Source: Rebecca billardiae RCC1528 | Taxonomy: Eukaryota; Protista; Haptophyta | Reading direction: 5' to 3' | DNA length: 64,000 bases | Assembly (NCBI GenBank): GCA_965240325.2 | Contig: OZ251224.1 | Span: forward strand, 1,302,001-1,366,000 | Part shown: piece after piece, positions 43,642-64,000 of the stretch | Layout: each line of letters opens with the position of its first letter | How positions within the stretch are numbered: position 1 is the stretch's first letter | Translations under genes and position numbers: made by a program | The notes under the pieces: model-generated | The model's input: only the letters and a program-made list of their open reading frames with translations | Told to the model about the DNA's origin: nothing | Database searches by the model: none

Positions 43642-45496
43642 CTGCGTCGCGTTTCCGGGCGAATACCACGCGCACAGGGAAGCGGGGGGATGAGCGCCAC
43701 GCCGCGGGCCGGGCTGCCGCACGCGAGCGCCCCACCTTGACGTGTACCCTCTAGACGACGATGGGTGCCCCTCAGCTCGAGCAGTCGAGCCAAGAGGTCG
43801 AGCCCGGTCCCCGACGACTCCCCGGACTTCCCGAAGTCCTGACGAGCCGGCTGAGGAACCGGACTGCTCGGCGGTGCTCACCAGCCCGAGCGGTGGCGGA
43901 GATCACGTCGAGTGGCATTCGCGACGTCCTCGTTTGGGCGAGCTTGCGCCAGATTGCGCGCGCGACGCAGTGGCGCGCGTACCTGGCTAGGGGAGACTCT
44001 GGCAAGCACAGCCGGGTTGATGCATGGCATGGGCATCCTGCAATCTGCATCTTGACCCTTCCCTCTTCATTGCAGTGGACCACGTTGGATAAGTTGGCGC
44101 GGACTCGGTTGCGGACAGCGGAGTGGCGGCGCGGCGGATCTGCGTACAACCAGCAAATGCAGGTGCTGGGTGCACGCGAAAGCTGGCTGTTGAACTAATA
44201 GTTGTGGCACAATGCGCCTCGTCTGCGATAGCGGCACGAGTGCTGACGGCAGACGCGGCAGCTTGTGACACGCAGTCACTCAGTGATGGCTCTGCGCAAC
44301 CGGGGTCGGGGCAGCTGCGCCGCTGCGGGCTATCCGTCTTAGACCGTGACCGAGTGTAGCTATTGCATATACTTCGGGGTGTGGTCGGTTGGGGGATGTC
44401 GGCGAAGAAACGGTGACGTCTGCGACTGCTAGAAGAGTATTCGGCGAGCACGGTGTGTGGCACGAACTGTTCCGACTCTGACTGGATGAGGAGCGCCGAG
44501 CGGATTCAAGGCGGTCAACCTGCCAGCGGACCCAAGCAGACCGGGGTGCGGTGGTGATGAGTCCGCCCAAGTCCGCATGTTACGCGGCACAGACTACAGA
44601 GACAGATCAGCGAACGTGCACGATGGCATGCGCACGGCTGCGGCAACGGTGGTCACGCCGCGGCATCTCGGCAAATAACCAAGTATGGGGGTAATGTCAT
44701 TGTTCGCGTGACTGAGTTGAGAAAACAGCGGGGGCCTAGCGGCCTTTTCCCGGTGGGGCTGGTCGAACACAGCGCGTCTAGGACGCGACGGAGAAGCTTG
44801 CCAGGGCCGGCAGACCCGACGACGATGAGACGAGTTGGCCGTTCAGCGCTGACTAACGGTATCATCCAAGCTGCCGCGTCTTCGCGCGTCGCGTGTGCGA
44901 TTTAGCCATTAGCCAGGTGCGGCAGCGTGGCTCTCCCAGTTCTGCAAGGCCCACCGAGGCGCCAGCGAGGCGCGCGTCGATGCAGTCGATGCAGTCGTCG
45001 CTGCGCACGGCCGCTCGGGCACGGCGGCACGGCAACGGCACGCACCGATCACGCCGTGCGTGCGCGCGTCGGCCATCGACGCGTGGTAGTCGTGCAGCAA
45101 CTGCAGTCCGCACGTCGTGCGCGCTGCTGCCGCCGGACGCCCAGATGGCGCGCGACCGCGTCGGTCGCGGCGGCCTCGCGCGCCGCGCGCGGTTCGGCTC
45201 GACGCGCGGCGTGACCCTCGCGGCGCTCCGCGTTGCGCGCCTCGTCCACGCCGTTCAGCGTGCTCGCCAGCCGCGCTGCGCGAGGCACGCGTCGAGCGCT
45301 GCCGGCGTCTCGCAGTTTGGGTGCGAGGCCGCGGGCGCGCGCGCGCCGGGGGGCGTGGCCTCGTGCGGGTGCACGGCGAGGCGCGCCAGGTCCGTACCGT
45401 TACCGTATTGTATAGGCGGTATGAACTGGGTAAGAAGGGGGTACCGCTAAGATCGCCGCCAGATTTGTGGGAATCGCAACGACATCTCTATGCGGC

Positions 45497-45598
45497 GCGC
45501 GCAAAAATTAACCACATGCGCTTCGATTCCCGAGGCGTGCCCTAATTGGCGCAAAAATTAACCAAGTGCGTTCTCGATTCCCGAGGCGTGCCTAATCA
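45497..45598. repeat. Tandem duplication, 2 x ~50 bp
   Basis: GCGCAAAAATTAACCA..TGCG..TCGATTCCCGAGGCGTGCC occurs twice. Confidence 0.8.
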
Positions 45599-46242
45599 AA
45601 AAACGTTTGAGGCCCCATTCTTCGTATTCCTACTCCGGTATTACTCTCCCCATCAGTACGTCACACACAATTAAAGGGGGTCGGAGCTGGGTCTCCCAGG
45701 GCTTTCTCACGAATTAAAATTGTTTAAAGCTGTGTTCACCAGAATAATCATTGGAGCCTGGAGATTCGGAAGATCCTTCAATCACAATCTCGGTCTGTGA
45801 GCTGTGTGCGTCTCACCGATCCATCTTGCGAGTTGCGACAATCAAACCTGACTGGTTCCGTACCGGCGGCGGAGTTCAGAGAGTGCATCTTCGACCGTGA
45901 ACGACGTGTCTTGTGACTCTTGTCAAACTCCGTGATCGAAAGACCGACGGAGCTACACAAAAACCGCATGTGGATAGATGCGTATTCATGGATTCATCGA
46001 CGAATTCTTCATTGCGCTTTCCGCTGCCACGAGTTTCTTGCAGAGAATGTTCAATGTGGGTGAGAAGCACGCAAAAGAACAGCGCTGGCCTTCTCCGGCT
46101 TCAATGTTGTAGTGGGAAAGCATCTCCGGATGTTTCGTGCCCAAATCGGCCGGCGAACATGAGCATAGGTTCTTGGGAATTCCCCAAGCACGTGCGACCG
46201 GGCACAAAACCTTGGCGAACAGTCCTTCCCCACTCTAAAGTC

Positions 46243-47898: not shown

Positions 47899-48296
47899 AG
47901 CTCTGATGATCGCAGGCTACGCGACGTGCCGCTGGCACCGTGTTAATGCATGGCGGCACTGCCGTACTGCCTACGGCAGCAGAGTGCTCGGCGGCCATCC
48001 GCCGGTCCGTTACAAAACTACAATGAGCCAGCGAAAGTCGGTGTACCCTGTGATTTTTGCAGGAATCTGTAGTGTCACGGCACCCTCCCCCCCTGCCCCT
48101 AGGGGGCCCATAGGGGCGACCCCCCAGATACCCAGGCTGAGCGGCTTTCTACCCCTCTGTAGGGACATGTCCCGGAAGTCACCGGCTGCCCATAGTGTGC
48201 ACGACACTGTTTGATTCCTCTGTATAGTCAGCGACGGTCCGCGCGCGCGCCGCCGCGCCGCGGCGCCGCCAGCTGCCGCTGGCGGCGGCCGCCCGC

Positions 48297-48879
48297 CGCG
48301 CCGCGCCAAGACCCCCCCCCCACCCGACCGCCCGACCCGACCCGACTGCCCGACTGCCAGTGCCACGCCGCGCCAAGACCCCCCCCCCCCCCCACCCGAC
48401 CGCCCGACCCGACCCGACTGCCCGACTGCCACGCCAGTCCGGGGCTAGTCCGGGCCAGTCCGGGCCGCATGGCCGCCGCGCCGCCGCCGCGCCAAGACCC
48501 CCCCCCCCACCCGACCGCCCGACCCGACCCGACTGCCCGACTGCCAGTGCCACGCCGCGCCAAGACCCCCCCCCCCAACCCGACCGCCCGACCCGACCCG
48601 ACCGCCCGACTGCCACGCCAGTCCGGGGCTAGTCCGGGCCAGTCCGGGCCATGGCCGCCGCGCCGCCGCCGCGCCCGAAGACCCCCCCCCCACCCGACCG
48701 CCCGACCCGACCCGACTGCCCGACTGCCAGTGCCACGCCGCGCCAAGACCCCCCCCCCTCACCCGACCGCCCGACCCGACCCGACTGCCCGACTGCCACG
48801 CCAGTCCGGGGCTAGTCCGGGCCAGTCCGGGCCATGGCCGCCGGCGCCGCGCCGCCGCGCCAAGACCCCCCCCCCCCAC
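48297..48879 (+). repeat. Subterminal tandem array, first part: CCAAGAC(C)nACCCGACCGCCCGACCCGACCCGACTGCC units
   Basis: Multiple near-identical units. Confidence 0.92.
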
Positions 48880-50815
48880 TAGCCTGGTCCAAACGCACTG
48901 GAGCACTTTCGGGGATTTTATCGCCAAATGAATGCGGGCCCCTAGGCGCGCGCTCACACCCGGAAACAGCGTAGCAAATGGGCCCAGCCCGGGCGGAGCA
49001 AAAGTTTCGGCCTAAAAATCGCATCCGCGGCCCGTCGTGAGCGTGCGCGCGCGCGCCGCGGACAACTACGGACACATAGAGAATCGTCAGTCTGAATGTG
49101 GGTAAGTACTTAGCCGAAATGAGCCCAAACGCACGAACTTACTTATTGGCGTACGTCGAGGCGAACATGAACCTTGGTACAGGCTATTAGGATGGGCTCT
49201 GGTCTGTGCGCAAGTGGCCGTACTCAACTACTGCAAGATTGACTATATTACCCATTTGTACCCGCATAATATGGGAAATTTACCCGCATAAATATGCGTT
49301 CTGAGTCTGTGTAATTAAATGCCAGTATGTCGTTACATATTCGCCATAGGTGGGTAGCTGTCCCAGGCTGCACGATTAGTGCGGCGCTCGGGGTGCAGTG
49401 GTCGGACGAGGCTCCGCCTGGCCTTCCGCGCACTCCTGCAGACAAGAAGAGGGCCGGACTCCCACCCGGCCAGGCGTGCGACAGTCGGTCAGGTGCTGGA
49501 CCTGGTCTGGAGACCATCTCCTGCGTGGCGACTGGCCGATGTGCGGCACAACGCGCGCCGCCGTGAGCCACACGGCAGGTTCGCAACGGATCCGGATCGC
49601 GTGTCCATGGCGGCGTGCATCGAGTCATTCAAGCTGTCAAGTCGCGTGCCACGCCCGCCCTTTCACTTGGGGCATCCGTACTGCCTACAACGACGACATG
49701 TGCGTCCTTAGACGAGGCATAATCGCGGTTCTAGCTGCTCGTCCAAGGGTCAGATCGCACGTCCTTGCTCGCCCGACAGCCTCAACGGCGGACTGATGTG
49801 ATCCGCGGGTGACGATGCGACCGCTTCGAGTGCGCCTACGGCCACCACCGGGGTGGGGATCGTTCATGGGCACCCTCCGCGTGCCATGACATGCTCTGGC
49901 CGTGCGTGGTGACTTGACCCACCGCACGTAAACGGGGAAGACACCCGAGCACGTGCTTCCGAGCCACCCGAATGGCACAATGTGCCACCCATGGACACCA
50001 AACACGTGCCAAAGCGCGAGCCTTGCGTGCTGGAGTAGCCGCACGACACCAAGGAAGACGTACGAGCGCTCTCAACCATCTTCAAGCGACGACTCCGTCG
50101 ACTCTGCCTCGCAGACCGCGGTACGATCCTCGACCTTGTGCTCGCAGCAAAGGCCACGACGGTAAAGCAGCACCCAGGGGATGGGAGTCAGCCGGCAGCC
50201 ACTACAATGTAACTGTACATACCCAGCCCCGCAAGGCGAGCCGTCCTGATCGCCCCCAGCCCGTCATACAGCTCCACGAGAAGCACAAATCGACTGCCGC
50301 CGCCTTGGGCGACCCATGCGCAAACGTGACGGGACTGGCCGGATGAAGCGTTGGCGATGCGCAGCGCGCCCAACGCTGGTGGTGGCATCGAGTACATGCT
50401 AGGGGTAGGCGGTGCCCCATGCGAGCCGTCGCGTGCCGCGCATATTCCCGGAGGTGCCCCTTCTCGAAGGCGCAGCGCAACCCAGCAGCTGAGCGTTCGA
50501 CGCGCGCCGTCGGGCGAGAAGTCGACCTGGCGACGGACCGCGGGCGGCGGAAGCAACGCAGACATGTCGCTTAAGGTGTGCACGCACACCGCCGGGGCAC
50601 CCGAACGATGTGTCCAGCACTACACCTGACATGAGGCGGCGCAGTCGTCCAGTCGAGGCTCTCGAGCCCCTTCCGACCTCGTCGCGGCGAGCCGTCGGAC
50701 GGCCGGTGGCGATTTTTGACGAGCGCGACGAGCGACGAGAAAAATCGGGAGAAATGAGGCGCCCAAAATCCGAAAAAGGCTTTTTCAGTGGCGAAAATCG
50801 GGATGGACCAGGCTA
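48880..50815. mobile_element. Nested non-autonomous DNA transposon: 12-bp TIR TAGCCTGGTCCA, TSD CCCCCAC
   Basis: TIRs at 48880-48891 and 50804-50815; duplicated target at 48873-48879 and 50816-50822; interrupts a repeat unit that resumes afterwards. Confidence 0.8.
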
Positions 50816-51060
50816 CCCCCACCCGATCGCCCGCCGACCCGACCCGACTGCCCGACTGCCAGTGCCACGCCGCGCCAAGACCCCCCCCCCCCACCCGACC
50901 GCCCGACCCGACCCGACCGCCCGACTGCCATGCCAGTCCGGGGCTGCCACGCCAGTCCGGGGCTAGTCCGGGCCAGTCCGGGCCATGGCCGCCGCGCCGC
51001 GCCGCGCCAAGACCCCCCCCCCACCCGACCGCCCGACCCGACCCGACTGCCCGACTCGGG
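50816..51060 (+). repeat. Subterminal tandem array, continuation
   Basis: Same units as 48297-48879. Confidence 0.9.
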
Positions 51061-51108
51061 GCCACGCCCCGGCCGCCCGGCCGGGGCACAACGCGCGCGC
51101 GCCGCGCT

Positions 51109-51792
51109 GGGTGGACAAATGGGGGCGTGGCGCGCGCGCGCGCGCCGTCGCGCGGCCGACGACCTCGGTCGCCAGCGCGCTCGCCGCGCGACCGCGGCGC
51201 GCGTGGCCGGGTGCGCACGCCGCGGGCGGCGCAGCGCGAGGACGGACGGGTCGCCGCGCCGCGCCGCGCGCGCGCCGCGCCGGGTGGACAAATGGGGGCG
51301 TGGCGCGCGCGCGCGCGCCGTCGCGCGGCCGACGACCTCGGTCGCCAGCGCGCTCGCCGCGCGACCGCGGCGCGCGTGGCCGGGTGCGCACGCCGCGGGC
51401 GGCGCAGCGCGAGGACGGACGGGTCGCCGCGCCGCGCCGCGCGCGCGCCGCGCCGGGTGGACAAATGGGGGCGTGGCGCGCGCGCGCGCGCCGTCGCGCG
51501 GCTGACGACCTTGGCCGCGCGCGCGGGCCCCGCGCGCGCGCGCGCGCCGCGCCGGGTGGACAAATGGGGGCGTGGCGCGCGCGCGCGCGCCGTGCGGCCG
51601 ACGACCTCGGTCGCCAGCGCGCTCGCCGCGCGACCGCGGCGCGCGTGGCCGGACGCGCACGCTGCGGGCGGCGCCGAGCGCGAGGAGACGGGTCGATGCG
51701 CCGCGCACGAGCGACCCGCCCGGCTGAGCCAACCGTGACTGCCCGCCGCGCCGTGCGCGCGCCTTGTCCGGGTGGACAAATGGGGGCGTGGG
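51109..51792 (+). repeat. 173-bp GC-rich tandem repeat marked by GGGTGGACAAATGGGGGCGTGG
   Basis: Marker at 51109, 51282, 51455, 51554 and 51770. Confidence 0.9.
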
Positions 51793-52048
51793 GGCGCCGG
51801 CGCCGCATCAGCGTGGGCACGTAGGCGTTCGACCGCTCAGCCGCGCAGCTTCCAACTCCGATATGTATAATATTCTGAATATATAATAATGCTGACGTCG
51901 TCTGCCCGTCCGCACTGACCACTGTGTGCTGAGGATGCATTCTGACCGATACGCGACTGTTACCGTTATTGATTGCCGCGTCGTCGTCCTAACTCTAAAC
52001 TCAGACTAACATTAACAAGTGGCGCGGCCGAGCAGCTAGCTGCAGCAG

Positions 52049-53395
52049 CTAAGTTCCGCCGAAGGCGTCGGAGCAGAGCGCCGCAAACGTCTGGCCAGGG
52101 GCGGGCAGCGCCGCGGCGGTGCCGCAGCCGGCCTCACGGGCGGGCTGCTGCGCGGGGCCGCAGCACCCGCGCGCGCACGCGCCGCTGGGCAGATGGCGGT
52201 ACGGCAGCCCCCGGAGGCGAACGGCGCGCGCGCCGCCGCGCCGGCCGCCAGCAGCGGCGGCGACGCACACAGGATCACCGCAGCACAGGTCCATGCCGTC
52301 GGCGTTGGCGACGTAGTAGACGGTCCTGCTCGCATGCTCGCCGCGCTTGCGCTCGCACCACCTGCTCGTGGTCGAGCACGTCGCGATGCGGCCGTGCGGC
52401 GTGCTCCCTGCGTACACCCGCTGGACGCGCGGCCAGTGCCCGGCGGCGCCTGCGCCGGCCGCGTGCGCGACGAGCTGCGCGTTGAGCCACGCGACGAGCG
52501 CGCCGCGCCCCGCGGCGCGCGCGCAGAGCGGCGCCTGCGGGTGAGGCGACGGGCACGGCGGCGCACGCCGCGCCGCCGCCGGCGCGCCGGGGCGGGCGCT
52601 GCCCGCCGCGGCGCTCGCGGCGAACTCGAAGCGCTCGGTGCGCAGCCGCGTCAGCGCGAGCCAACGCGCCGGCTCGCAGCGCTGCCGCAGGGCGTGCCCG
52701 GCCGGCAGCGCCGAGAGCCAGGCGCAGCGCACGACGCCCGAGCCGTCGGCAGCGACGACGGCGGCGGGCAGGTAGGGCGGGCCGCCGTCCGCCTTGGCCG
52801 TGAACGGCAAGCGCAAGCCGGAGCGGTAGATCGACCCATCGACCTCGGCCTTGGCAAAGAGGGCGCGCACAGGGCTCGCCTGCAGCCGCACGTCCAGCTC
52901 CCGCGCGACGCGCTGCGCCTCCGAAGAGCTCAGGACCGCACTGTCGCCCCAGGTGGCGTGCAGGCCCGCGCGGAACAGGCCGGCGTCGTCCGCGGCGACC
53001 CCGAGGCGCGAGGGCGTCGCCGCGCGCGCCGAGACGTGCACGGCGTGGCCGCGCGCGGGACGGGGCACGCCGTGGAACGCAGCGTCTGCCGCGTCGTAGA
53101 GGTCGACGAGCAGCGCGGCGAGGGCGTCGTACGAGGGCATGCGGGAGAAGCGCAGATCCACGTCGACGCCGAACCGCGCGCGCGCGCCGAACGTCTCGAC
53201 GACCATGGGCGCGCGCGCGCCAAGCAGCGCGTACGACGACGCGACGAGCGCGTCCAGCCGCGGCAGAGAGGCGCTCGGCACGTGCAGCCGACCGCCCACC
53301 CTGTGGCCGTCGGCGTCGCGGAGGAACACAATCTCGTGGGTGCACGGCTCGTCGCCGCCGGCGCGCGCGCGATTTGCCCCGGCCGGTGGTAGCAC
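52049..53395 (-). CDS. NCLDV-type AEP primase-polymerase (PrimPol; phycodnavirus A468R-like) with C-terminal Zn finger; no ATG at the 5' end
   Basis: TH..GGRLHVP...VVE...RFGVDVD (motif I), GLH.TW (II), VDGSIY.SGLRLPFTAK..PYLP (III), WCERKRGEH..VYY...C.D..C (CHC2 finger); intronless. Confidence 0.8.
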   Translation of the reverse strand: MLPPAGANRARAGGDEPCTHEIVFLRDADGHRVGGRLHVPSASLPRLDALVASSYALLGARAPMVVETFGARARFGVDVDLRFSRMPSYDALAALLVDLYDAADAAFHGVPRPARGHAVHVSARAATPSRLGVAADDAGLFRAGLHATWGDSAVLSSSEAQRVARELDVRLQASPVRALFAKAEVDGSIYRSGLRLPFTAKADGGPPYLPAAVVAADGSGVVRCAWLSALPAGHALRQRCEPARWLALTRLRTERFEFAASAAAGSARPGAPAAARRAPPCPSPHPQAPLCARAAGRGALVAWLNAQLVAHAAGAGAAGHWPRVQRVYAGSTPHGRIATCSTTSRWCERKRGEHASRTVYYVANADGMDLCCGDPVCVAAAAGGRRGGARAVRLRGLPYRHLPSGACARGCCGPAQQPAREAGCGTAAALPAPGQTFAALCSDAFGGT

Positions 53396-53407
53396 GGGCG
53401 GCCGGGC

Positions 53408-53559
53408 GTGGCAGTCCGAGGCAGTCGGGCGGTCGGGTCGGGTCGGGCGGTCTGGTGGGGGGGGGGTCTTGGCGGGCGCGCGGCGGCCATGGCCCGGACT
53501 GGTCCGGACTAGCCCCGGACCGGCGTGGCAGTCGGGCGGTCGGGTCGGGTCGGGCGGTC
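53408..53559 (-). repeat. Inverted copies of the subterminal repeat unit
   Basis: GGCAGTCGGGCGGTCGGGTCGGG...GTCTTGG is the reverse complement of the left array. Confidence 0.9.
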
Positions 53560-53808
53560 AGGTGGCCCGCCAAGCACAGCGGCCGTGGTCGGGTGCCGCC
53601 CGCCAGCACGGCGGCCGTGGTCGGGTGGGCCCGACTGCACCGCTCAACAGCTAGGGATGACGAGGAATCGGGCGTGTCACGTCGGCCAATCAGAGCGCGC
53701 GCGCGTGCGCGCCCAGTTACAGCTTCCCGCACTCTTCCTGGAAACTCCAGATTCCTGCAAAAATGGCAGGATAGACCCGAAAGTCGTACGTAACTATGCG
53801 GACGGTGC

Positions 53809-53914
<106 letters not shown>

Positions 53915-57980: not shown

Positions 57981-58598
57981 CTGACCGTCCGTCCGTCGGT
58001 GGGCCCATCCGCCCATCGGGCAGCGGGCTTAGCTACTGATTAATTACTGTGACTACAGTATAGTATGGCAATTGGCAGCGCCGAGGGCGAGGCAGTGCCC
58101 GAGACTGCCGTGCCAGTGGCCTTAAACTAATTATAACGACACAGTAATACATATATATATAGCTTATAATAATAGTATTTTGAATATTATATATAACAGT
58201 TTATGGCCCGCGGTGCTGGGCGGAGCGCGCAGCGTGCAGAGCCCGCACTGCGGGCCCGAACCACGTTTCAAAAAGATCTTTGATCAAGAAATTAGAAAAA
58301 AGGGACGGGGGACGATTTTTAGGGCTGGCGGAGACCGAGTTTCGAGTTTTTGAGATCGCATAGAGAGGTCTATCAGGCCAAAAAAACCGCGCCCAGCTGA
58401 TTCCCGATAAGTAATCGATGGACGGCCGTGACTTTAACGTAACGGTTCGTTACGAGCGCGATTCTAAGTATGAGATTGCCGCCAACCGCCAACCGATAAA
58501 AACGGCAAGGCAAGGGACCGGCGCCTCCGGTGGGCCTCGTCACGAGGCGGCAGCGCACGCTGCGCAGCGAAAGGCGGGGAGACGAGAGCAAGTGGGCT

Positions 58599-59735
58599 AT
58601 GGCAAGCAGCACATCGACAGGCGACGCCGACCAGGACTTCGTTCTCCGCGTATTGAACGCGCTGCTCGACTCGGGGACAGTGACGAGGGTGGGCAAAAAC
58701 ACGCTGCAGAGCACCGCTGCCGCCATCTCCGTCGCCAGGCACAAGCAGACCATCACCGGAGCCGCGAGCGAGTACCGCGTGTCGATTCATGCGATCAAGA
58801 CGCTCCTCGGCCAGGTTCGCAACGTGCTGGAGGCGGAGGGCGCACTCGGCAGCGGCGGCGCGGCGCGGTTGATCACCGACTTCACCACGCGCCCCGCAGG
58901 CCAGGCCCCTCCCTCCTCCTCACCCGGCCCAACAGCTGGCAGCCGCTTCACGGCACTCGCCGCGCTCGACGGGGAAATGCCCGCTGCAGAGCAAGCGTCA
59001 CAGCCGCAGCGGGGGCGCCCGGCCGGCTCGCTCAGCCTGCTGGGCACGCTCAACCTAGGCGTCACGTGCTACCTCGGCTCGCTGCTGGCGGCGCTGCTCG
59101 CGTGCCCTTTCATCGTCTCGCTCGCCACATCTGCCGCGGCTGAGCAGTCCACCAACCCCATCGTGTCCAGCATGCGCTCGCTGGCGCTCGCGCATGTCAA
59201 CTGCGAGTGGCCCAACGAGGTGGGGCCGACGCGCAGCTTGCTCGAGCCGCTCCACGACGCGATCGCGGAGGTCTGTCGGTGGACAACGGCGTTTGGGCAG
59301 CAGCAGCAGGACGCGTGCGAGGTGCTGTACAAAATCGTGGAGGCCCTGGCTGGCTGCGACGAGGCGTGCTCATACCTTGGCTTGCTCGAGTGCCTCGGTC
59401 AGCTGGCGAGCGAGCAGCCCTCGCAGCAGCAGCGCGTGCCGACGCCGACGATCTCGCAGCAGCAGCGCGTGCCGACGATCTCAGTCGGCCATGACTTCGA
59501 CTGTACACAATCGGCGCCGCGCCGGCGGCTGCGATGGGCCCGCCCGGCCGCGCGGCGGGCGGCGGCGCGCCGCTGGAGTCTACTCGCTGCCGGCCCCGGG
59601 CTCGCGGCCGGGCGGGCCAACTCTCGATCGCGACGGAGGGTGCGACGGAGGGTGCACCGCCACCGCGGGCCCCGAACTACGTTTGTTCTACGGAAAAGGA
59701 CCGCGGAACGCGGTCATATACAGTCAATTACATAA
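58599..59735 (+). pseudogene. Truncated USP (peptidase C19)-like fragment
   Basis: LNLGVTCYLGSLLAAL (Cys box) and QQQDACE (QQD box); no His box; tail degenerates into low complexity. Confidence 0.55.
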
Positions 59736-60883: not shown

Positions 60884-62012
60884 CAAGGGCGGTAAGGGCT
60901 GTCAACTCCCAGTGGCGGCGGTGGCAGAGGTTGGTCGCCGCTTCGTCGCTGCGCGGCCTCGCTCCAGCGACTAACTCTCGTGGGCGCCCGCCCTGGGGGG
61001 CGAGTGGGGCGCGCACGGCGCGAGCTCCTGTGGCCGTGTACGCGCGCGCGGAGGCGGCGCGCGTGGCTGGGCAGGTGCTAAGGAGTGTATGTCGCCCTCC
61101 CACGCCGCGCGCCTTGCTCGCCGCCGCTTTCGCCGCGCCTCAGGCCAGCGCGCACGCGTGCGCCGCCTCCAGAGCCAGCCTCGGGCAATCGGCAGCCGCC
61201 CGCGCATGTGTGGTGCGCGGTCTGGTCGGCGCGAGTCGGTCGGGGCCATCGGGCGAGGCTCGCATACTATAGACGCGCGCCATGCTGCCTCGCGCCGCCG
61301 CGCATGGGCCCGGTCCCATCCCGTGAAGCTGTTGAAGGAAGCTGATCGATGAATGCACGACAAGCAGAAATGAGCTCGAATACGTGACAGTGAGCGCACA
61401 TGCGCGTGATAGGCGGCCGCATTGGGCGCGTGTACGGCGTCCTATGAGTGCATTGCCCCGCTCTTCATCGCCTGCGCGCGTCTATTGTGCTCTCCAGCGT
61501 CTCCATGAGCGTCCAAACATGAGCATTTTCGCATTCGTGCTGCAGTTCGTGTCAGACCTAAGATGCTTGCGTGTCGACCCATGACAACCCACGCGCGGCG
61601 GCGCGAGGCAGCATGGCGCGCGTCTATAGTATGCGAGCCTCGCCCGATGGCCCCGACCGACTCGCGCCGACCAGACCGCGCACCACACATGCGCGGGCGG
61701 CTGCCGATTGCCCGAGGCTGGCTCTGGAGGCGGCGCACGCGTGCGCGCTGGCCTGAGGCGCGGCGAAAGCGGCGGCGAGCAAGGCGCGCGGCGTGGGAGG
61801 GCGACATACACTCCTTAGCACCTGCCCAGCCACGCGCGCCGCCTCCGCGCGCGCGTACACGGCCACAGGAGCTCGCGCCGTGCGCGCCCCACTCGCCCCC
61901 CAGGGCGGGCGCCCACGAGAGTTAGTCGCTGGAGCGAGGCCGCGCAGCGACGAAGCGGCGACCAACCTCTGCCACCGCCGCCACTGGGAGTTGACAGCCC
62001 TTACCGCCCTTG
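60884..62012. mobile_element. Foldback non-autonomous transposon, P/Galileo-like: 425-bp TIRs, 7-bp TSD ACGGAGG
   Basis: Arms 60884-61308 and 61588-62012 are near-perfect inverted copies; TSD at 60877-60883 and 62013-62019; termini CAAGG...CCTTG. Confidence 0.88.

Positions 62013-63517: not shown

Positions 63518-64000
<483 letters not shown>

What the first reader, a model, noticed from the sequence alone, without database searches (positions are those of the whole stretch)
48001..53808. Inverted-terminus element carrying a giant-virus-type primase-polymerase: candidate new PrimPol-bearing mobile element or captured viral gene
Seen: a 17-bp exact inverted match near both ends (48053-48069 and 53748-53764) within longer imperfect similarity; oriented subterminal arrays of CCCGAC-rich units, forward on the left and inverted on the right; an internal 173-bp tandem array; and a single intact, intronless gene. 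Known: the gene's DxD, GxH and D..Y..GLR.P..K..PYLP motifs plus the CHC2 finger fit AEP PrimPols of the NCLDV/herpes clade. The TH..GG.L.VP...VVE...F.VD.D N-terminus resembles phycodnavirus proteins more than cellular PrimPol (DxE). Inference: either a transposon that captured a viral replication gene, or a defective member of an undescribed primer-independent self-replicating element in which the repeats act as binding sites or an origin. No transposase, integrase or capsid gene is visible.
Basis: partly seen in the sequence, partly recalled or inferred. Interest (0 to 1): 0.85.

Follow-up and report, generated by a model that had tools for sequence, protein, structure and literature searches.

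The report
Transposon carrying giant-virus-type primase gene
A 5.7-kb jumping-gene copy in a GC-rich microbial eukaryote, with matching inverted ends and an 8-base landing footprint, carries a giant-virus-type primase gene but no recognisable transposase, so it likely moved with a borrowed transposase; the primase is likely a passenger but may be a built-in helper gene of an undescribed transposon family.

Summary
The element is real and sharper than first described. It spans 48040-53777, with 37-bp imperfect terminal inverted repeats (GG...CC) abutting a perfect 8-bp target-site duplication (CGAAAGTC); 0 of 40 shuffled windows gave such a pair. The CCCGAC arrays belong to long inverted arms. 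The left arm is split by an unrelated nested 1.9-kb element (48880-50815) whose ends occur beside other DNA in public runs. The single gene is a primase-polymerase (AEP) with a zinc finger, of the NCLDV-herpes clade: HH probability 99.1 to capsid-linked giant-virus proteins; best fold ASFV C962R (Z 16.7), ahead of human PrimPol (11.9). It is not a recent viral capture: codon GC is host-like and it belongs to a small, long-branched GC-rich clade. It is not clearly intact: no in-frame ATG precedes its first conserved motif. No transposase and no second copy were found; no genome was available. Best reading: a non-autonomous cut-and-paste element (Merlin- or Mutator-like ends) moved in trans, with the primase as cargo (0.5). 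Live rival: the primase is a standing accessory gene of an undescribed transposon family (0.33). Self-replication is unlikely (0.07).

The parts
48032..48039 (.). Left target-site duplication CGAAAGTC
   Evidence: identical to 53778-53785
48040..53777 (.). Whole non-autonomous TIR element, 5738 bp (3795 bp without the nested insert and one copy of its duplication)
48040..48076 (+).
   Evidence: 30 of 37 identical to the right TIR
48287..48879 (+). Left subterminal CCCGAC array (183-bp period, 3.2 copies), first part of the left long arm
48880..50815 (.). Nested, unrelated 1936-bp non-coding element with 12-bp TIRs (TAG...CTA) and a visible 7-bp duplication in a C-run; Academ-like by recalled terminal signature
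   Evidence: (a contig in X1 with another flank before 48880; X2 pieces starting at 48880 and ending at 50817; X1 piece 49318-50248 with 20 differences in 931); no Pfam hit in 8 of 8 frames tested
50816..51104 (+). Continuation of the left array and inner border of the left long arm
   Evidence: 50891-51104 aligns with the inverse of 53565-53359
51092..51791 (+). Internal GC-rich tandem array (173-bp period, 2.7 copies, then shorter derivatives)
   Evidence: (D3, D8)
51800..52048 (-). Lower-GC 3' flank of the primase gene (GC 0.54), likely 3' UTR or terminator region
   Evidence: function inferred
52049..53557 (-). Stop-to-stop open frame (502 codons) of the AEP primase-polymerase plus zinc finger. 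Homology begins at about 53350; first in-frame ATG at 53206
53359..53565 (-). Right long arm (inverted CCCGAC units). It overlaps the 5' end of the primase frame and holds an out-of-frame ATG at 53490 followed by a run of 10 C
53741..53777 (-). Right outer TIR, 37 bp
53778..53785 (.). Right target-site duplication CGAAAGTC

Best explanation
This is a transposase-less DNA transposon copy with terminal inverted repeats and an 8-bp target duplication, likely moved by cut-and-paste using a transposase made elsewhere in the genome, and it carries a giant-virus-type primase gene that is likely a passenger and likely 5'-defective. Shown: ends, TSD, long inverted arms, nested second element, AEP fold and motifs, lack of an in-frame start. 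Inferred mechanism: a DDE transposase of the Merlin or Mutator type binds the outer TIRs (the CCCGAC units would be added binding sites), cuts the element out and inserts it with an 8-bp staggered cut, which is filled in to give the TSD. The primase gene descends from an NCLDV A468R-type gene that entered this eukaryote lineage long ago and took on host codon usage. It was placed between the arms, pointing inward from the right arm, which would supply any promoter. A second element later jumped into the left arm.
For: TSD abuts independently defined TIR ends; 0 of 40 shuffles match it. GG termini, 8-9-bp TSD, imperfect TIRs and internal tandem repeats are Merlin features (PMC8101967, passages). 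8-11-bp TSDs, long TIRs and transposase-less gene-carrying Pack-MULEs are Mutator features (PMC6446971, passages). The only long frame with homologs is the AEP; 8 of 8 frames tested in and beside the nested part had no Pfam hit. AEP homology starts within about 20 bp of the inner border of the right arm (53359 vs TH at 53341), as expected of a capture junction. No in-frame ATG precedes the conserved N-terminal hairpin; no GT-AG intron restores the frame, and only 6 weak GC-AG options do. GC1/2/3 = 0.77/0.64/0.93, against GC3 0.80-0.95 in 7 host frames.
Against: The captured piece is nearly a whole gene with all catalytic and zinc-finger residues and its 3' flank, not a fragment. The arm holds an ATG only one base out of frame across a C-run whose length varies from 10 to 15 among the 10 units, so the gene may be intact in other copies or mis-assembled here. 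Its 5 nearest homolog clusters are 28-50% identical by BLASTP and lie on contigs of at most 1.3-2.6 kb, and one contig of run X1 holds a further divergent paralog (loose end at 52819). That pattern fits a mobile accessory gene as well as a host gene. No parent host copy, second element copy or matching transposase was found, and none could be sought in the own genome. Merlin was not found in 3 Haptista genomes, which matters if the host is a haptophyte (my untested guess). A 9-bp TSD register also exists with a one-base asymmetric end.
Confidence: 0.5

Rival explanations
1. The primase is a standing accessory gene of an undescribed TIR transposon family. Full copies would carry a transposase read inward from one arm and the primase read inward from the other. 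The primase would reprime or fill gaps at the donor or target site, raising copy number. This copy lost the transposase, and the 173-bp array now sits in its place.
For: Near-complete gene with DxD, H, D and C-H-C-C kept. Start and possible promoter lie in the arm (ATG 53490); Mutator TIRs hold promoters (PMC3310237, abstract start in search listing). Old, divergent, patchy clade of 7 GC-rich sequences (100* SH-aLRT, quick tree), all on short contigs and none with an NCBI source among the cluster members listed. Precedent for enzymes hitch-hiking in many transposon lineages: TET/JBP (PMC12730594, passages) and Fanzor (PMC3627910, abstract start).
Against: No homolog context could be read (searches found no locus). 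Short contigs are typical of these collections. No transposase remnant seen. The start codon is out of frame in this copy. Some homologs break off or shift frame within the domain (P0001, P0004), which could be introns of host genes or decay.
Confidence: 0.33
2. Defective member of a self-synthesizing element in which the primase-polymerase copies the element from the repeat arrays.
For: AEPs of this clade prime and extend DNA (PMC4538821, passages); the arrays are oriented. A review suggests that a primase plus polymerase plus integrase could give new transposons (PMC6431247, passage).
Against: No helicase, processive polymerase, integrase or capsid gene. Human PrimPol extends only 1-4 bases. 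The ends and 8-bp TSD match ordinary DDE transposition. Tandem repeats are common in Merlin elements.
Confidence: 0.07
3. Recent capture of a gene straight from an infecting or integrated giant virus.
For: Full-length profile match to AEP proteins that lie beside NCLDV capsid genes; the gene is intronless.
Against: Host-like codon GC, while the viral loci fetched are 31-46% GC. Long stem branch (2.3) to a clade of GC-rich homologs. No close relative in viral contigs. Many host genes in the window are long single frames too.
Confidence: 0.06
4. Not one element: a host PrimPol-like gene flanked by independent repeats.
For: The stretch does contain an independent nested insertion. Cellular PrimPol was not in the tree.
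Against: The TSD brackets both TIRs; the arms are homologous over about 210 bp at their inner ends. ASFV C962R (Z 16.7) outranks human PrimPol (Z 11.9).
Confidence: 0.03

Closest known systems
Pack-MULEs (non-autonomous Mutator-like elements carrying captured genes; PMC6446971, passages)
   Same: No transposase, long inverted arms, TSD in the 8-11-bp range, one foreign coding sequence between the arms
   Different: Cargo is a near-complete giant-virus-type primase-polymerase rather than a host gene fragment; arms are a 37-bp outer TIR, an unalignable spacer and a repeat array; no matching MULE transposase seen
Merlin/IS1016 DNA transposons (PMC8101967, passages)
   Same: 5'-GG termini, 8-bp TSD, TIR length within 24-462 bp, imperfect TIRs, internal tandem repeats
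   Different: No DDE_Tnp_IS1595 transposase in this copy; no primase cargo in the passages read; Merlin not found in 3 Haptista genomes in that survey
A468R-like / C962R-type AEPs of the NCLDV-herpesvirus clade (PMC4538821, passages; Pfam PF23162)
   Same: [quoted passage not shown]
   Different: Long-branched GC-rich subfamily that Pfam itself misses; no helicase fusion; sits in a eukaryotic TIR element, not beside capsid genes
Transposons with hitch-hiking enzymes: TET/JBP-carrying fungal DNA transposons (PMC12730594, passages) and Fanzor elements (PMC3627910, abstract start)
   Same: An enzyme gene riding in DNA transposons; Fanzor is also shared with giant viruses
   Different: Those are shown in many complete elements; here there is one transposase-less copy, and the enzyme is a primase
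Polintons, Teratorn (PMC6431247, passages)
   Same: TIR-bounded eukaryotic elements with viral replication genes; Teratorn has a herpes primase
   Different: They are tens to hundreds of kb with integrase or transposase, DNA polymerase and capsid genes; none of these is present here

Membership tests
Non-autonomous TIR DNA transposon | Terminal inverted repeats | tested here: met
   37 bp, 30 of 37 identical
Non-autonomous TIR DNA transposon | Target-site duplication abutting the ends | tested here: met
   8-bp CGAAAGTC; 0 of 40 shuffles
Non-autonomous TIR DNA transposon | Other copies or an empty site | not testable with these tools
   No genome held; TIR and array patterns found nothing in metagenome, viral or prokaryote contigs, which need not hold this host
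Merlin | 5'-GG termini, 8-9-bp TSD, TIR 24-462 bp | tested here: met
   against PMC8101967
Merlin | DDE_Tnp_IS1595 transposase in the element or in an autonomous partner with the same ends | tested here: inconclusive
   None in this copy; partner could not be sought
Mutator / Pack-MULE | 8-11-bp TSD and long TIRs | tested here: met
   8 bp (9-bp register possible); arms homologous at both ends but not in the spacer
Mutator / Pack-MULE | Ends shared with a MULE transposase element; cargo traceable to a host gene | not testable with these tools
   No genome
NCLDV-herpes clade AEP (A468R/C962R type) | AEP fold with three catalytic motifs | tested here: met
NCLDV-herpes clade AEP (A468R/C962R type) | [quoted passage not shown] | tested here: met
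   C338, H345 invariant and C363 nearly so in A3; aligned; 6 of 13 members of A3 hit Herpes_UL52 weakly (best E 0.0004); this part of the model is low-confidence
NCLDV-herpes clade AEP (A468R/C962R type) | Primase or polymerase activity; expression | not testable with these tools
   Needs RNA and an assay
Cellular eukaryotic PrimPol (CCDC111) | Groups with cellular PrimPol orthologs | tested here: inconclusive
   No cellular PrimPol sequence was in the tree; by fold it ranks below ASFV C962R and about level with HSV UL52 and pox AEP; profile A3 hit pox D5 but not human PrimPol at E<=10
Self-synthesizing elements (Polinton, Teratorn type) | Integrase or transposase plus replicative DNA polymerase, usually capsid genes | tested here: not met
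   Only one homologous frame in 5.7 kb
Academ (nested element) | TAG...CTA termini (recalled, not from a call) | tested here: met
Academ (nested element) | TSD 3-4 bp (AcademX) or 9-10 bp (AcademH) (PMC10045372, passage) | tested here: inconclusive
   7 bp visible, but it lies in a C-run of variable length

The most novel reading that the evidence does not exclude
An undescribed family of eukaryotic cut-and-paste transposons has carried a giant-virus-derived primase-polymerase as its own helper gene for a long time, read inward from one long terminal arm and used to reprime or fill gaps during transposition; this copy has lost only its transposase.
Probability: 0.33. Interest if true: 0.8.

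Novelty: new variant of a known kind. Interest (0 to 1): 0.52.

Why it matters
At the least, it shows a giant-virus-type replication gene being moved around a eukaryotic genome inside a small cut-and-paste element, a concrete route for the spread of endogenized viral genes, and it exposes an AEP subfamily that Pfam misses. Four literature searches (open-access library only, listings plus the passages cited) showed no small TIR transposon carrying a stand-alone primase-polymerase. If the gene is a standing part of the family, it would be the simplest link yet between cut-and-paste and self-synthesizing transposons, and one genome-wide search would test it.

Tried and rejected
No own genome is held, so copies, empty sites and an autonomous partner could not be sought. 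Pfam gave no hit for the window protein; word-indexed homolog searches found nothing with the single protein and only P0006 with alignment A1, both saturated by low-complexity words. No hit in phages or PDB sequences. No locus for the GC-rich clade in metagenome, viral or prokaryote contigs. TIR pattern: 0 matches in metagenome and viral contigs (38, 88); array pattern: 0 in viral and prokaryote contigs (110, 111). No RNA holder listed. Runs X1-X4 left most of the primase frame and the right end without cover; this is no evidence. The X2 contig that seemed to match up to 48101 was not seen again and is disregarded. Contig depth (about 8-19 over the nested element in X1, single 151-bp pieces on the PAS gene) is only a hint of higher copy number. 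The ESM Atlas gave no result. The careful tree did not finish; the quick tree is used, with strong composition bias and long branches; P0008, P0009, P0017 and L003 were left out and no cellular PrimPol was included. Splicing from the ATG at 53490 was tested and found weak. The AcademH paper is not held, so the TAG...CTA signature is recalled. The host is not identified by any search; 'haptophyte-like' is my guess from gene density, GC and gene content. Earlier findings held no look-alike sequence. No supplements were read; Repbase entries, which I could not see, may already hold such an element.
Full report
Setting. The window is a gene-dense, GC-rich (about 65%) eukaryotic sequence with long single-frame genes: SelO, MHYT, Myb, MIZ, USP7, a PAS protein and an XPG/Exo1 nuclease. 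The finding lies between the PAS gene (ends 47898) and the Exo1-like gene (from about 55860). No whole genome is held. The host is not identified by any search; haptophyte-like is my guess.

Ends. Directly outside these ends lies the same 8-mer, CGAAAGTC, at 48032-48039 and 53778-53785. A de novo scan for 8-bp direct repeats abutting inverted ends scored this pair 26 of 30; 0 of 40 shuffled windows reached 26 (best 22). A 9-bp register exists only if one end is shifted by a base. The element is thus 48040-53777, starts GG, ends CC, and was inserted by a staggered cut. The (AAT)35 run at 53809 is outside it.

Interior. The CCCGAC units form long inverted arms: 50891-51104 aligns with the inverse of 53565-53359, including about 50 bp past the last unit; the spacers between outer TIR and array do not align above chance. 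The left arm is interrupted by a separate 1936-bp element, 48880-50815, with 12-bp TAG...CTA ends and a visible 7-bp duplication in a C-run. Public contigs support its independence: X1 has a contig with another flank before 48880, X2 has pieces that begin at 48880 and end at 50817, and an X1 piece covers 49318-50248 with 20 differences in 931. Between the arms (2254 bp) lie the 173-bp array, a lower-GC 3' flank and the primase frame.

Protein. Pfam misses it. HMMER over 1.84 billion representatives gave 6 hits at E<=0.001: five GC-rich-type relatives at 31-47% identity and P0006, which carries PF23162 AEP_C962R. P0006 led to 7 more PF23162 proteins and on to viral loci where the gene lies near NCLDV major capsid genes (L002, L005). 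The GC-rich group and this second group match over 313 columns from the TH..GG hairpin to the zinc finger, probability 99.1. The AlphaFold model (mean pLDDT 58, AEP part mostly 70-84) matches ASFV C962R best in Foldseek (E 7e-6) and VIA (Z 16.7, rmsd 3.3, 212 aligned), then HSV UL52 (12.8), human PrimPol (11.9) and pox AEP (11.4); BFVD top hits include medusavirus, clandestinovirus and pandoravirus AEPs. This is the NCLDV-herpes clade described in PMC4538821 (passages). The labels CHC2, and DxE for cellular PrimPol, are recalled and come from no call.

Age and state of the gene. In a quick tree of 20 rows the window protein falls in a clade of 7 GC-rich sequences on a long stem (100* SH-aLRT); composition bias and long branches limit this, and no cellular PrimPol was included. 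Codon GC (0.77/0.64/0.93) resembles 7 host frames (GC3 0.80-0.95) and not the viral loci (31-46% GC). So the gene has lived in GC-rich genomes for a long time. One X1 contig matches just below 52819 and continues with letters that read as another family member's motif III (my translation), so further paralogs exist, in this or another organism. The frame is open from 53557 to 52049 but has no ATG before 53206, which would omit about 45 conserved N-terminal residues. The only upstream ATG in the element on that strand, 53490 in the right arm, is out of frame (284 nt), across a run of 10 C; the same run is 10-15 long in the other units. No GT-AG intron fixes the frame. The copy is therefore either 5'-truncated at the arm border or carries a one-base slip, real or from assembly.

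Mechanism. GG...CC ends, an 8-bp TSD, imperfect TIRs and internal tandem repeats match Merlin (PMC8101967, passages), though that survey found none in 3 Haptista genomes. An 8-bp TSD, long arms and gene cargo without transposase match Pack-MULEs (PMC6446971, passages). hAT and Zisupton also make 8-bp TSDs (PMC12730594, passages). Repbase classifies non-autonomous elements by matching their ends to known families (PMC4455052, passage), which I could not do. All of these move by a DDE-type transposase, which here must come in trans (inferred). I give 0.5 to the primase being a passenger, 0.33 to its being a standing accessory gene of the family, 0.07 to self-replication, 0.06 to recent viral capture and 0.03 to no element. 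For the accessory reading: the gene is nearly whole, keeps every catalytic and zinc ligand, points inward from an arm that holds an ATG, and its relatives are divergent, few and on short contigs. Against it: no context of any homolog could be read and no second copy was found, though these collections need not hold the host.

Novelty. Cargo-carrying non-autonomous transposons and endogenized giant-virus genes are both known (PMC6446971; PMC5294986 and PMC11244446, passages). Four searches of the open-access library listed no small TIR element with a stand-alone primase-polymerase; Repbase and subscription journals were not searchable. bioRxiv 10.1101/2021.09.26.461848 (passages) added only that haptophytes are minor known hosts of DDE transposons. 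Verdict: real element, new variant of a known kind, interest 0.52, with a one-in-three chance of a more surprising family.

Noticed in passing
window 60884-62012: Foldback-like element with 425-bp TIRs at 99.8% identity and a 7-bp TSD (ACGGAGG); very recent insertion.
   Followed up: partly
window 48880-50815: Nested non-coding element with TAG...CTA ends, Academ-like by recalled signature; its ends occur beside other DNA in runs X1 and X2.
   Followed up: partly
window 45500-45746: Repeat-like stretch upstream of the PAS gene with a 50-bp tandem pair; an X1 contig matches it and then diverges at 45746, possibly the end of another element.
   Followed up: no
window 58500-59732 (+): Frame with a partial ubiquitin-hydrolase (UCH) domain, E 3e-5, that loses homology midway; could be decayed or element-borne.
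   Followed up: no
window 63815-63928: Perfect 114-bp palindrome inserted in a (CATA)n microsatellite.
   Followed up: no
window 45178-45347: Weak inverted similarity (69% over 173 bp, E 0.002) to the 173-bp array unit; may be GC low complexity.
   Followed up: no
window 53676-53693: CCAAT-like word with an adjacent CACGTC in the spacer of the right arm, upstream of the primase frame; possible promoter, seen by eye only.
   Followed up: no
P0001, P0004: Homology of these relatives stops abruptly inside the domain, next to residues compatible with splice sites; they may be intron-containing eukaryotic genes, unlike the window copy.
   Followed up: no
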